From the human T2T-CHM13v2.0 reference genome, Homo sapiens: a DNA stretch of 64,000 nt. Of the stretch, positions 47,788 to 49,478 are shown one piece after another. Position 1 is the stretch's first letter, and every line of letters begins with the position of its first letter. The translations under genes were made by a program, and so were the position numbers. The stretch lies in the NCBI RefSeq assembly GCF_009914755.1, contig NC_060947.1; one strand, 5' to 3'. A model generated the notes under the pieces. The model worked only from the letters and a program-made list of their open reading frames with translations. It was not told the DNA's origin and did not search any database.

Positions 47788-49478
47788 GCAACCCCTTCTA
47801 CGAAGAATATAATTTGAGAATGAATTTCCAAGAACTGTTTTCCCACTTCAAACTGTGTGGTGTATGTACAGCTTCCAGCAGACTGGTCGCTGTGTACCTG
47901 TAAACCTTGATGATTGAATGCTTACAAAGGCCCTTGATTAAAAAGGACAAAGTGTAGTGTAGCCCAACATGTCACAATGTGCTGTGCACAAGCACAAATT
48001 GCCCTTGTTCTTGTGGATGGAAAGCTATTAAGCATAACAGGAACAAACAGTGGATTCCTGATGGCATTAAAGCTGTGGGCATCATTTGGTGGATCCAGAG
48101 TCCCTCAGGGAATGGGCCCACCCTGAGACAAAGGAGGATTTGTAAGGCCTTACGGCACACTCAAACTAAATTACATCTAGGTGTGGCCACCACTCTTGTA
48201 ACCCTAGTATGGGGACCCAATTTTTTTGGGTGCAAAACATGTATCCCAACTGTACTCAGGCCATTAGTACACAGTGGCAAAAACATGCATGGTGGATTAA
48301 ACAACACTGGCCCACCAGACAGAAAAGGCGCAAAGGGGAGATAGGTGCAGGTCCAGGAATCCCAGAACAAGCTGAGTTTGCTTTCAATGAGGAAAAACGT
48401 TCAGAGGAAAAAGATTTATTAACTAGAATAGGCAGGTTAGACAGAATTCTCTTCTAGGAGGAAGGCCAAGGATGGGAGTTAGCCTGGAAAGATGATAAGG
48501 CTTTAGCAAAATGGGTCAGGCAAACTCAACAAATGATGCTGTATGATGCTAAAACCCACTGTAGGGGAAAGGGCCTGCACCCGGACCCAACAGGGCCTCT
48601 TGACAATTTTAATACAAATAGAGGCTAAAGTGTCCATGAGGCAGTGGCCCTCTGTCCTGGCTGCTCAGGCTCAAGGGGCACACCTATGGGAATCTTATGG
48701 CCCTCCAAACTCATGGAAGTTCTGTGGGGCACTTGTACTTTACATCGATATAATATGACTGCCCTCTCCTCCAGAACAGGCCAAAATAAAACATATGCTA
48801 TGGTACAGTAAGTAAGAATATGAGCTGTTCTAAATACCACATATGTCCTCCCTGTAGGAGGGAGGTGGGCCCTGCTATATAATAACACACAGTGGGCCGG
48901 GCAAGGTGGTTCATGCCTATAATCCCAGCACTTTGGGAGGCTGAGGTGGGAGGATCACTTGAGCCCAGGAGTTCCAGACTAGCCTGGGCAACATAGCAAG
49001 ACCCCATCTCTACATTACAAAAAATAGCAGGGCATGGTGGCACGTGCCTATAGTCCCACCTACTTGGGGGTCTAAGGCAGGAGGATTGCTTGAGCCTGGG
49101 AGATTGAGGCTGCAGTGAGCCGTTATTGTGCTACTGCACTCCAGCCTAGGAGACAGAGTGAGACCCTGTCTTAAAAAATAAAAACAACACACAGTGGAAA
49201 CCAGTCAAGACCGTGAGATGAGACACAGTGATTGGCTTTGTCCCCATCTAACTTGGAATTCAGAAATAACCGAGTCATGGTCCATTACAACAACACCTGT
49301 CCTTAATAATATGTGGTATATGGGCAAGGGTAGATCTGCTGGGAAGACAAAGCAAATACCTCCATAATTCTTACTGATCTCTTCTGTAATGAAACTGAAT
49401 CATACCATGATCATACTGCAATATGATGAAATACTGGTGTTGCTGGTAAGATTCAACTCCCTCATGTAAGTAAATCAG
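47788..49478 (+). pseudogene. env: Decayed envelope-like glycoprotein gene, 3'-truncated, split by an AluJ (48895-49183)
   Basis: Splice acceptor TTCTATTTTTCAG (47787); furin-like RQKR 48317-48328 then a Gly-rich GEIGAGPGI; Cys/Trp-rich; N-glycosylation sequons NCT, NMT, NKT, NTT, NNT, NTS, NET. Confidence 0.7.

What the first reader, a model, noticed from the sequence alone, without database searches (positions are those of the whole stretch)
47788..49478. Foamy-/F-protein-type envelope remnant in a primate class III (MER21/ERVL) provirus
Seen: about 1.4 kb of non-Alu sequence between pol and the 3' LTR. Stitched across stops and frameshifts it reads ...NPSMGTQFFWVQNMYPNCTQAISTQWQKHAWWIKQHWPT-RQKR-RKGEIGAGPGIPEQAE...LLTRIGRLDRILF*EEGQGWELAWKDDKALAKWV...RACTRTQQGLL...PNSWKF...YNMT...[55 protein letters not shown]...NNMWYMGKGR-CWEDKANTS...CNET. 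It has a furin-like site, a Gly-rich fusion-peptide-like stretch, at least seven N-glycosylation sequons and an upstream splice acceptor. Established: HERV-L-type elements lack env. Gamma-type Envs have an immunosuppressive domain and CX6CC about 100 aa after the cleavage site; neither is visible here, and the post-cleavage ectodomain runs beyond 250 aa. Inference from remembered motifs: this layout (long TM ectodomain, a C..x6..C-like pattern with the first Cys decayed, then a G-x-G-x-aromatic hairpin) resembles foamy-virus Env and F-like class I fusogens, and Env-like ORFs of bird/reptile class III ERVs. It would mean an infectious class III retrovirus with a non-gamma envelope entered the primate germline.
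Basis: partly seen in the sequence, partly recalled or inferred. Interest (0 to 1): 0.82.

Follow-up and report, generated by a model that had tools for sequence, protein, structure and literature searches.

The report
Decayed non-gamma retroviral envelope gene
The stretch is the broken remains of an envelope gene of an ancient retrovirus, of an envelope type that matches no catalogued family but survives as an intact, unstudied 679-residue gene in cats.

Summary
Window 47492-49478 is a dead env gene. It lies in a provirus with LTRs at 36981-37859 and 49961-50827, about 10% apart (~26 My).

A profile of the human copies found an intact 679-aa relative, annotated only as "uncharacterized protein" in Panthera onca, and a 682-aa one in Leopardus geoffroyi. 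Read frame by frame, the window matches residues 112-545 at 41-42% identity. Damage over 47864-49477: 6 stops, 5 frameshifts, one Alu. About 440 bp of the 3' end is also missing (second heptad helix, membrane anchor, tail).

The protein has a class I fusogen layout:
- signal peptide, then an N-terminal part of about 235 aa with a CXXC motif
- a basic cleavage site (RQKR in the window)
- a Gly-rich hydrophobic peptide
- a C-terminal subunit of about 420 aa

No Pfam family or solved structure matches by sequence. Profile comparison with gamma-type Env gave 0.56% probability.

F-protein likeness rests only on language-model neighbours (Baculo_F, Fusion_gly). Both AlphaFold models were poor and the fold searches were empty. 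Foamy likeness is unsupported.

The "class III/ERVL" label is not supported. The RT matches gammaretroviral RT best, and sister copies carry the MLV-type integrase C-terminal domain.

The parts
36981..37859 (+). 5' LTR
   Evidence: Aligned with the 3' LTR. 866 shared sites, 90 differences, K2P 0.114.
37861..37885 (+). Primer-binding-site-like stretch just after the 5' LTR
   Evidence: Sequence. Reading it as tRNA-Leu type is from recall. It agrees with 'PBS: L' given for MER21 in the Vargiu 2016 supplement.
43261..44932 (.). AT-rich tandem repeat (period 11-15 nt) inserted between the gag/pro region and pol
   Evidence: 113 repeat copies in family D1. Long artefactual minus-strand ORFs.
45146..45655 (+). 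Reverse transcriptase remnant
   Evidence: Pfam RVT_1, E 2.6e-10. Best solved relatives are XMRV/MLV RT.
46863..46866 (+). Point where about 800 bp of integrase (zinc-finger remainder and catalytic core) is missing in this copy
   Evidence: L002 21-120 matches window 46765-46865 and L002 926-963 matches window 46863-46900. The integrase-core motifs lie in the L002/L015 stretch that the window lacks (rve E 0.057 in L015, weak).
47122..47455 (.). Alu insertion in the integrase C-terminal region
   Evidence: Repeat families D2/D3/D6 and the hub's masked list.
47492..48316 (+). env, N-terminal (surface) part: candidate start ATG at 47492, signal-peptide-like stretch, CXXC-containing Cys cluster. 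Frame 2, then 0, then 2.
   Evidence: X-read frames. In-frame matches to P0009 residues 148-167, 187-229 and 219-261. DP alignment from 47864. The ATG and signal peptide are inferred by likeness to the relatives' N-termini.
48317..48331 (+). Basic (furin-type) cleavage motif RQKRR
   Evidence: RQKR is intact in 5 of the 12 copies aligned at this site.
48332..48385 (+). Gly/Ala-rich hydrophobic fusion-peptide-like stretch
   Evidence: Aligns with P0009 residues 263-280.
48386..48894 (+). env, first part of the C-terminal (transmembrane) subunit: long-helix region and start of the Cys-containing central domain. Frame 2, 0, 2.
   Evidence: In-frame matches to P0009 263-330, 340-390 and 387-450. 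Stops at 48455, 48809 and 48821; frameshifts near 48560 and 48732.
48895..49195 (+). Alu insertion with target duplication inside env
49196..49478 (+). env, central domain of the C-terminal subunit, up to the break
   Evidence: Matches to P0009 458-504 and 494-545. Stops at 49424 and 49427; frameshift near 49335.
49479..49945 (.). Two Alu elements sitting where the last ~440 bp of env (second heptad helix, membrane anchor, tail) are missing
49946..49958 (+). Polypurine tract
49961..50827 (+). 3' LTR

Best explanation
The stretch is the dead env gene of an endogenous retrovirus that entered the primate germ line roughly 26 million years ago.

The polymerase is of the gamma/epsilon (class I) kind. 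The envelope belongs to a family that no domain library describes.

In the living virus the protein would have worked as a class I fusion glycoprotein. The steps are:
- a signal peptide takes it into the ER, where it is N-glycosylated
- a furin-type protease cuts after the basic motif (RQKR in this lineage)
- this yields a surface part of about 235 aa and an unusually large membrane-anchored part of about 420 aa
- the Gly-rich peptide at the new N-terminus enters the target membrane
- the long helix behind it and the helix in front of the membrane anchor then fold back on each other, around a Cys-rich, beta-rich central domain

What is shown: the homology to intact ORFs, the order of the motifs, the predicted helices and anchor, and the absence of gamma-type hallmarks. 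What is inferred: cleavage, trimer formation and fusion.

The window copy can make no such protein. It has 6 in-frame stops and 5 frameshifts over 47864-49477, an Alu inside, and no 3' end.
For: - Provirus frame: LTR pair, PBS and PPT. RT remnant.
- Position: the stretch lies between pol and the PPT.
- Intact relatives: the profile of human copies (A3) found P0009, 679 aa, E 1.9e-55. Its source names it an uncharacterized protein of Panthera onca. P0155, 682 aa, 85% identical, is from Leopardus geoffroyi.
- Window against P0009: 137 of 328 and 35 of 86 identical.
- Features of P0009: N-terminal hydrophobic stretch, 14 sequons, 24 Cys including CVTC at 146-149, one strong membrane anchor at about 631-665, and a Cys-rich tail.
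- AlphaFold on P0009 with 93 relatives: helices 273-383 (pLDDT 80-90 at 310-360), 583-634 and 644-670.
- RQKR is intact in 5 of 12 human copies aligned at the site.
- The membrane anchor is readable in frame in several human copies.
- Class I pol: the RT scores 73 bits against XMRV RT, 52 against Ty3 and 43 against foamy PR-RT. MLVIN_C (39.7 and 53.3 bits, cut-off 29.2) and RNase_H lie directly upstream of the same env type at two other loci.
- Not gamma-type.
Against: - Both AlphaFold models have mean pLDDT about 50, so the central domain's fold is unknown.
- A crude heptad count did not set the first helix apart from control stretches (0.47 against 0.47-0.50). The second helix did stand out (0.69 against 0.26).
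- Codon-position and synonymous-site tests among human copies were weak or ambiguous in env. Open-frame statistics were no better than the reverse-strand control.
- The felid proteins lack a canonical R-X-K/R-R site.
- For the window's own subfamily, the class I call rests on the RT comparison alone.
Confidence: 0.85

Rival explanations
1. The Env is a true member of the F-protein lineage: paramyxo/pneumovirus F, baculovirus F/errantivirus Env, lokiretrovirus Env. It would share their fold and descent. This refines the best explanation rather than excluding it.
For: - Layout: a small N-terminal part, a basic cleavage site, a Gly-rich peptide, then about 380 aa of ectodomain between that peptide and the anchor, with a helix just before the anchor.
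- ESM Atlas neighbours for the whole protein, at 0.92: clusters with Baculo_F (19% of members) and Fusion_gly (18-21%), plus CoV S2.
- ESM Atlas neighbours for residues 259-640: Baculo_F clusters at 0.88, 0.88 and 0.86, and Fusion_gly (83% of members) at 0.85.
- Precedent: lokiretrovirus Env matches PF00523 at E 2.2e-7 (PMC7947760, passages read).
Against: - P0009 did not hit PF00523 or PF12259 at E<=10.
- A whole-genome scan with PF00523 hit none of these loci.
- The family profile found no solved F protein.
- Atlas scores of 0.9 or more arise for 4-10 in 100 shuffled proteins, and scores under 0.9 are leads only (tool text).
- The fold searches were uninformative because the models were poor.
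Confidence: 0.3
2. It is a very diverged gamma-type (or epsilon-type) Env. It would have lost the immunosuppressive domain and CX6CC and gained a large insert between the heptad regions.
For: - The pol is class I-like.
- The surface part keeps a CXXC motif about 110 aa before the cleavage site, as gamma-type surface subunits do. This is CVTC in P0009; the comparison with gamma-type is from recall.
- Env genes of the neighbouring HEPSI groups are gamma-type (Vargiu 2016 supplement).
Against: - hhalign of the family (A9) against four human TLV_coat ORFs gave probability 0.56%.
- There was no TLV_coat hit in 20 human fragments or in P0009.
- There is no CX6CC.
- At about 420 aa, the C-terminal subunit is about twice the gamma size (the gamma size is from recall).
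Confidence: 0.15
3. One reading: a class III (ERV-L/MER21) provirus carrying a foamy-type Env.
For: RepeatMasker/Repbase file MER21 under ERVL/class III, according to the Vargiu 2016 supplement. The C-terminal subunit's size is near that of foamy TM (recalled).
Against: - The RT is closer to gamma than to foamy RT.
- There is no dUTPase.
- MLVIN_C is present in sister copies.
- Vargiu et al. themselves re-class MER21 as class I.
- PF03408 gave no hit.
- The relative has an ordinary N-terminal signal peptide rather than a long leader with an internal anchor.
Confidence: 0.05
4. The stretch is not an env at all. It would be a captured host gene, an accessory gene, or non-coding internal sequence whose open frames are chance.
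For: Reverse-strand frames show equally long shared open stretches and equally low stop density. There is no library family.
Against: - Intact 679-682-aa ORFs exist in two felids with 22 shared Cys positions.
- At a second human locus the match to P0009 residues 112-665 shows no stop and one frameshift near residue 484; a weaker upstream piece (residues 10-115) holds one stop.
- The protein has a signal peptide, sequons, a single C-terminal anchor and a short tail.
- It always sits directly after integrase and before the PPT/LTR.
Confidence: 0.03

Closest known systems
Lokiretrovirus Env (Wang & Han 2021, PMC7947760; abstract and passages read)
   Same: A retroviral env with signal peptide, RXKR-type site, fusion peptide, coiled coil and membrane anchor, and without gamma-type sequence similarity. 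It is a long fusion subunit of the F kind.
   Different: Lokiretrovirus Env hits Pfam Fusion_gly (E 2.2e-7); this family does not. Lokiretroviruses are reported from lampreys, fishes, amphibians and reptiles and are sister to all other retroviruses. This pol is gamma/epsilon-like and the hosts are placental mammals.
Baculovirus F / errantivirus (gypsy-type) Env and paramyxo/pneumovirus F
   Same: The order of parts and the size of the C-terminal subunit. They are the nearest named neighbours by protein-language-model features.
   Different: No HMM or fold match was obtained here. The N-terminal part (~235 aa) is larger than the F2 I recall, and it carries a CXXC motif.
Gamma-type retroviral Env (Pfam TLV_coat; syncytins, MLV)
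   Same: Carried by a class I-like pol. CXXC in the surface part, a furin-type site and a short tail.
   Different: No immunosuppressive domain and no CX6CC. hhalign probability is 0.56%. The C-terminal subunit is about twice as long.
OVEX1 ORF3 / GGLTR11 / TERV env-like proteins of birds (PMC2717909, passages read)
   Same: A third ORF after pol, larger than usual Env. It lacks CWLC, CKS17 and CX6CC, and has a coiled coil before the anchor and a short tail. It was left as 'an envelope protein?' by its authors.
   Different: The present family does have CXXC.
Foamy virus Env (Pfam PF03408)
   Same: A large C-terminal fusion subunit.
   Different: No HMM hit. No long leader peptide. The surface part is much shorter (foamy sizes recalled).
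HERV-S / HERVL32 / HERVL66 (class III pol with class I env; Kojima 2018 PMC5753468, Vargiu 2016 PMC4724089; passages read)
   Same: Examples showing that env and pol classes can be mismatched in human ERVs.
   Different: Those have class III pol and gamma-type env. Here the pol is class I-like and the env is not gamma-type.

Membership tests
Retroviral env gene (position and general build) | ORF between integrase and PPT/3' LTR that encodes signal peptide, glycosylated ectodomain, single C-terminal membrane anchor and short tail | tested here: met
   Position. Features of the intact relative. Window aligned to it.
Class I viral fusion protein | Basic cleavage site followed at once by a hydrophobic fusion peptide | tested here: met
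   RQKRR at 48317-48331 followed by a Gly/Ala-rich stretch. RQKR is intact in 5 of 12 aligned human copies. The felid proteins have only K-x-x-K-K/R.
Class I viral fusion protein | Two helical heptad regions that form a trimeric six-helix bundle | tested here: inconclusive
   Helices 273-383 and 583-634 were predicted. The heptad signal is clear only for the second. Bundle formation was not shown.
Gamma-type Env (Pfam PF00429 TLV_coat) | HMM match, immunosuppressive domain and CX6CC in the TM subunit | tested here: not met
   No hit at E<=10 in 20 fragments or in P0009. Cys spacing. hhalign 0.56%.
Gamma-type Env | CXXC motif in the surface subunit | tested here: met
   CVTC at 146-149 of P0009. 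The matching Cys cluster is at window 47967-48026.
F-type fusion glycoproteins (Pfam PF00523 Fusion_gly, PF12259 Baculo_F) | HMM match to the family | tested here: not met
   P0009 had no hit at E<=10. The PF00523 genome scan hit none of these loci. PF12259 was tested only through the scan.
F-type fusion glycoproteins | Shared fold (domains I-III around the heptad helices) | tested here: inconclusive
   Models had pLDDT 52 and 49. The fold searches gave no specific match. The Atlas neighbours are a lead.
Foamy virus Env (PF03408) | HMM match; long N-terminal leader peptide with an internal anchor | tested here: not met
   The hydrophobic stretch lies only at the very N-terminus and at 631-665.
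Class III / ERV-L | Foamy-related pol; dUTPase after integrase | tested here: not met
   RT: 73 bits against XMRV/MLV, 43 against foamy PR-RT. No dUTPase in any + frame of 44941-49481. MLVIN_C lies upstream of the same env at two sister loci. No tree was built.
MER21 / MER21-int (repeat-library name) | Match to the library consensus of the LTR and internal part | not testable with these tools
   No repeat library was at hand. A Leu-type PBS (recalled reading) fits 'PBS: L' in the Vargiu 2016 supplement.

The most novel reading that the evidence does not exclude
Placental mammals carry a lineage of class I (gamma/epsilon-like) endogenous retroviruses whose envelope is an F-type fusogen. It would be kin to lokiretrovirus, errantivirus/baculovirus and paramyxovirus F proteins rather than to any classical retroviral Env.

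Its intact 679-682-aa copies in cats would be either recently active viral genes or a co-opted host gene.
Probability: 0.3. Interest if true: 0.85.

Novelty: new variant of a known kind. Interest (0 to 1): 0.6.

Why it matters
Retroviral Env types in mammals are taken to be gamma-type, beta-type/lentiviral or foamy. This family fits none of them by sequence.

It is nevertheless widespread. There are at least 74 protein-level matches in the human genome, in at least two subfamilies. It also survives as full-length ORFs in two felids that carry no annotation beyond "uncharacterized protein".

If its fold proves F-like, env exchange between retroviruses and other virus groups would be documented inside mammals and inside class I retroviruses, not only in fish and reptile lokiretroviruses.

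The felid genes would then be candidates for a co-opted fusogen or a receptor-blocking restriction factor.

The result also bears on repeat-library practice: MER21-type elements are filed as ERVL although their pol looks class I.

For the window itself nothing functional follows. The copy is dead.

Tried and rejected
1. Midway I read the frame-0 stretch 47550-48180 as the integrase C-terminus and placed the env start near 48170-48209. The intact relative showed that this stretch is the surface part of Env. The real integrase core lies about 800 bp further upstream in other copies and is deleted in the window. Searching that stretch against PDB also gave no integrase hit.

2. Coding tests among the human copies did not help.
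- Diversity by codon phase gave ratios of only 1.0-1.26.
- Stop density and 'shared stop' maps were no better on the forward strand than on the reverse-strand control: 0.032 against 0.025 stops per codon in the best phase. I dropped them as evidence.
- Codon-position differences and synonymous fractions were clear for 46810-47120. They were suggestive for 48200-48540 (frame 2: 1.39 times expectation, but the antisense frame sharing the wobble site gave 1.34). Elsewhere they were ambiguous.

3. An iterated HMM over six-frame translations pulled in all three frames and was discarded. Alignments A4, A5 and A6 hold out-of-frame or misplaced fragments and were not used for conclusions, apart from the cleavage-site columns of A4.

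4. Minus-strand frames gave no Pfam family (18 translations).

5. Database searches gave nothing.
- PDB by sequence: 0 hits with A3, P0009 and A8.
- Pfam on P0009: only chance-level rows.
- Viral contigs: the alignment was too variable to scan, and P0009 found no relative.

6. Structure gave nothing.
- The model of L002 2475-3068 with A3 had pLDDT 52.4.
- The model of P0009 with A8 had pLDDT 48.7.
- Foldseek on PDB gave no match at E<=1e-3 in either search.
- BFVD gave a best E of 5.9e-3 at TM 0.05.

7. Complex prediction with three copies each of residues 281-385 and 582-636 of P0009 returned no verdict (score 0.00, controls not run). It counts neither for nor against.

8. I tried a control to show that a bona fide ERV-L RT ranks foamy RT first in the same PDB search, and abandoned it. 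Of three dUTPase loci fetched, two were HERV-K-like and one was an ERV-L-like integrase-dUTPase stretch without its RT.

9. The search of earlier findings was not open.
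Full report
**1. What is in the window**

A direct-repeat scan and an alignment show two long terminal repeats, at 36981-37859 and 49961-50827. They share 866 aligned sites with 90 differences, giving a K2P distance of 0.114. At 2.2e-9 substitutions per site per year this is about 26 My. That rate is the one quoted in the methods of PMC7947760.

A primer-binding-site-like stretch follows the 5' LTR. A polypurine tract at 49946-49958 precedes the 3' LTR.

Between the LTRs lie several things:
- Alu insertions
- a 1.7-kb AT-rich tandem repeat at 43261-44932
- a reverse-transcriptase remnant at about 45146-45655 (Pfam RVT_1, E 2.6e-10)
- RNase H and integrase fragments
- the stretch in question

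The window copy lacks about 800 bp of integrase that other copies have.

**2. Checking the observation**

The Alu at 48895-49183, with a short target duplication, is private to this copy. Other genomic copies are collinear across it.

The stretch is a repeated internal part of a provirus family. A DNA search of the same genome gave 42 matches at 65-78% identity, counting the window itself. Some are duplicons of one insertion.

Other copies continue for about 440 bp beyond window 49478 before their polypurine tract. Read in frame, that missing part encodes a helix-like stretch, a roughly 20-residue hydrophobic anchor and a short Cys/Lys-rich tail. The window's env is therefore truncated at its 3' end, where two Alus now sit.

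**3. A false turn, and what corrected it**

The copies are only 65-78% alike and all are broken. I tried to infer the ancestral frame from stop density, shared stops, codon-phase diversity and synonymous fractions.

The reverse-strand control did as well as the forward strand for open-frame measures. The substitution tests were weak in env.

Working by eye, I then misread the frame-0 stretch 47550-48180 as the integrase C-terminus.

The correction came from a profile search. An alignment of in-frame fragments of the C-terminal half (A3, 34 natural single-frame translations, stops read as X) was searched against 1.84 billion representative proteins. It found 275 proteins at E<=0.001. Nearly all of the 150 listed were short fragments; one was a full-length protein, P0009 (679 aa, E 1.9e-55), matched at residues 394-617.

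A word-index search names P0009 'uncharacterized protein LOC132680987' of Panthera onca (a cluster of 11 sequences). It also found P0155, 682 aa and 85% identical, 'uncharacterized protein LOC123611597' of Leopardus geoffroyi.

**4. The window read against the intact relative**

Ungapped tblastn with P0009 as guide places the window's in-frame pieces as follows (sum E 1.3e-68):

| Window | Frame | P0009 residues |
|---|---|---|
| 47967-48026 | 0 | 148-167 |
| 48120-48248 | 0 | 187-229 |
| 48215-48343 | 2 | 219-261 |
| 48335-48538 | 2 | 263-330 |
| 48567-48719 | 0 | 340-390 |
| 48707-48898 | 2 | 387-450 |
| 49215-49355 | 0 | 458-504 |
| 49322-49477 | 2 | 494-545 |

A frameshift-aware alignment, run separately on each side of the Alu, gives the following:

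| Window | P0009 residues | Identical | Stops | Frameshifts near |
|---|---|---|---|---|
| 47864-48889 | 112-447 | 137 of 328 | 47955, 48455, 48809, 48821 | 47915, 48213, 48560, 48732 |
| 49215-49477 | 458-545 | 35 of 86 | 49424, 49427 | 49335 |

Upstream, the N-termini of the relatives suggest that env starts at the ATG at 47492, with a signal-peptide-like stretch. The 'splice acceptor' at 47775-47788 therefore lies inside env.

**5. What kind of protein it is**

P0009 has these features:
- an N-terminal hydrophobic stretch
- 14 N-X-S/T sequons
- 24 cysteines, of which 22 positions are shared with P0155, including a CXXC (CVTC, 146-149) inside a Cys cluster
- one strong membrane anchor at about 631-665
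- a short Cys-rich tail

At the place where the window has RQKRR (48317-48331), 5 of 12 aligned human copies keep RQKR and the rest differ by one to three residues. The felid proteins have only a K-x-x-K-K/R motif. A Gly/Ala-rich hydrophobic stretch follows in all.

AlphaFold2 on P0009 with 93 relatives gave a poor model overall (mean pLDDT 48.7). It did give confident helices at 273-383 (pLDDT 80-90 over 310-360), 583-634 and 644-670, with low-confidence beta structure between.

This order is the layout of a class I fusion glycoprotein with an unusually large fusion subunit: signal peptide, surface part of about 235 aa, basic site, fusion-peptide-like stretch, long helix, Cys-containing domain of about 200 aa, second helix, anchor, short tail. 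Cleavage, trimer formation and fusion are inferred, not shown.

**6. Which family**

By sequence it matches none.
- Pfam: no family for 20 human fragments at E<=10. Only chance-level rows for P0009.
- PDB: no chain at E<=10 for A3, P0009 or the 94-sequence profile A8.
- Whole-genome scans with PF00523 (Fusion_gly) and PF03408 (Foamy_virus_ENV): nothing at these loci.
- Gamma-type Env: hhalign of the family alignment A9 against four intact human TLV_coat ORFs gave probability 0.56%. There is no CX6CC.

The only positive pointer to the F-protein kind comes from the protein-language-model neighbours in the ESM Atlas.
- For the whole protein at 0.92: unnamed clusters, a cluster with Baculo_F on 19% of members, clusters with Fusion_gly on 18-21%, and coronavirus S2 clusters.
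- For residues 259-640 among named clusters: Baculo_F clusters at 0.88, 0.88 and 0.86, and a Fusion_gly cluster (83% of members) at 0.85.

The tool's own calibration makes these leads, not tests. Five fold searches on the two poor models gave nothing specific.

I therefore rate 'non-gamma class I fusogen' as well supported, 'F-type by descent' at about 0.3, and 'foamy-type' as unsupported.

**7. Which class of retrovirus**

The window's RT fragment was searched against all PDB chains:

| Solved relative | Bits |
|---|---|
| XMRV/MLV RT | 73-71 |
| Ty3 | 52 |
| foamy PR-RT | 43 |
| HERV-K RT | 31 |

No dUTPase appears in any + frame of 44941-49481.

A protein-level search of the genome with P0009 gave 74 matches, which is a floor. 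Some are closer to the felid protein than the window is.

At two of these loci (contig 2 near 62.096 Mb, contig X near 143.004 Mb) the DNA just upstream of the same env type encodes the following:
- RNase_H (E 2.1e-21; contig 2 locus only)
- an integrase core (both loci)
- the MLV-type integrase C-terminal domain (MLVIN_C, 39.7 and 53.3 bits, cut-off 29.2; both loci)

These are class I features. The supplement of Vargiu et al. [quoted passage not shown] Kojima 2018 (Table 4 text) lists MER21I among the ERV1 entries.

I could not test whether this provirus is MER21. I built no pol tree, and my attempt at an ERV-L control failed.

**8. Literature**

Known class III human ERVs with env (HERV-S, HERVL32, HERVL66) carry class I, gamma-type env (PMC4724089, PMC5753468; passages read).

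F-like Env in retroviruses is described for lokiretroviruses of lampreys, fishes, amphibians and reptiles (PMC7947760; abstract and passages). It is also described for invertebrate errantiviruses (bioRxiv 10.1101/2023.10.26.564294; passages). That preprint reports no intact vertebrate ERV homologous to the invertebrate elements.

OVEX1 ORF3 of birds is an env-like protein lacking the gamma hallmarks (PMC2717909; passages).

A primate env screen used 32 HERV Env prototypes and does not mention MER21 (bioRxiv 10.1101/2024.10.28.620668; term search).

'MER21-int' occurs in 2 papers of the library, neither about env. Searches for MER21+env+ERVL and for F-like env in mammals found no description of this Env. 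Subscription-journal papers are not covered by these searches.

**9. Verdict**

The element is better described as a class I-like provirus with an uncatalogued, non-gamma envelope. Its F-protein likeness is plausible but unproven.

The window copy is a fossil without function. The interest lies in the family, above all the intact felid ORFs.

Noticed in passing
Proteins P0009 and P0155 (outside the window): Two felids (Panthera onca, Leopardus geoffroyi) carry full-length 679- and 682-aa ORFs of this env type, annotated only as 'uncharacterized protein'. They are 85% identical, share 22 Cys positions and lack a canonical R-X-K/R-R site. I could not tell whether they are orthologues, paralogous proviral copies or a co-opted gene.
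   Followed up: partly
L052 (own genome, contig 2:62095500-62100500, minus strand) and L053 (contig X:143003500-143007500): These are sister copies of the same env type, closer to the felid protein (54% and 45-49% identity) and much less broken than the window copy. At L052 the match to P0009 residues 112-665 shows no stop and one frameshift near residue 484; the weaker upstream piece (residues 10-115) holds one stop and overlaps the main match at 112-115. MLVIN_C and an integrase core lie directly upstream of env at both loci, and RNase_H at L052. This is observation only.
   Followed up: partly
window 43261-44932: A 1.7-kb AT-rich tandem array (period 11-15 nt, 113 register copies) sits inside the provirus just upstream of the RT remnant. 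It produces 368-532-aa artefactual minus-strand 'ORFs'.
   Followed up: no
window ~46865: This copy lacks about 800 bp of integrase (rest of the zinc finger and the catalytic core) that L002 and L015 retain.
   Followed up: partly
L022-L028 and further rows (contigs 4, 9, 13, 14, 21): One insertion of this family has been copied at least ten times by segmental duplication. Near-identical fragments sit at pericentromeric or acrocentric-looking coordinates.
   Followed up: no
L037 (own genome, contig 19:30374500-30383500, minus strand): An integrase core followed by a dUTPase (ERV-L-like order), with a gamma-type TLV_coat fragment about 1 kb further downstream and a Gag_p30 hit beyond. It is either a class III pol next to class I env remains or two nested elements.
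   Followed up: no
window 47550-49478, both strands: Among related decayed copies, the reverse strand shows shared open stretches as long as those of the true coding strand, and equally low stop density. ORF length in repeat copies is therefore no evidence of coding without an outgroup.
   Followed up: yes
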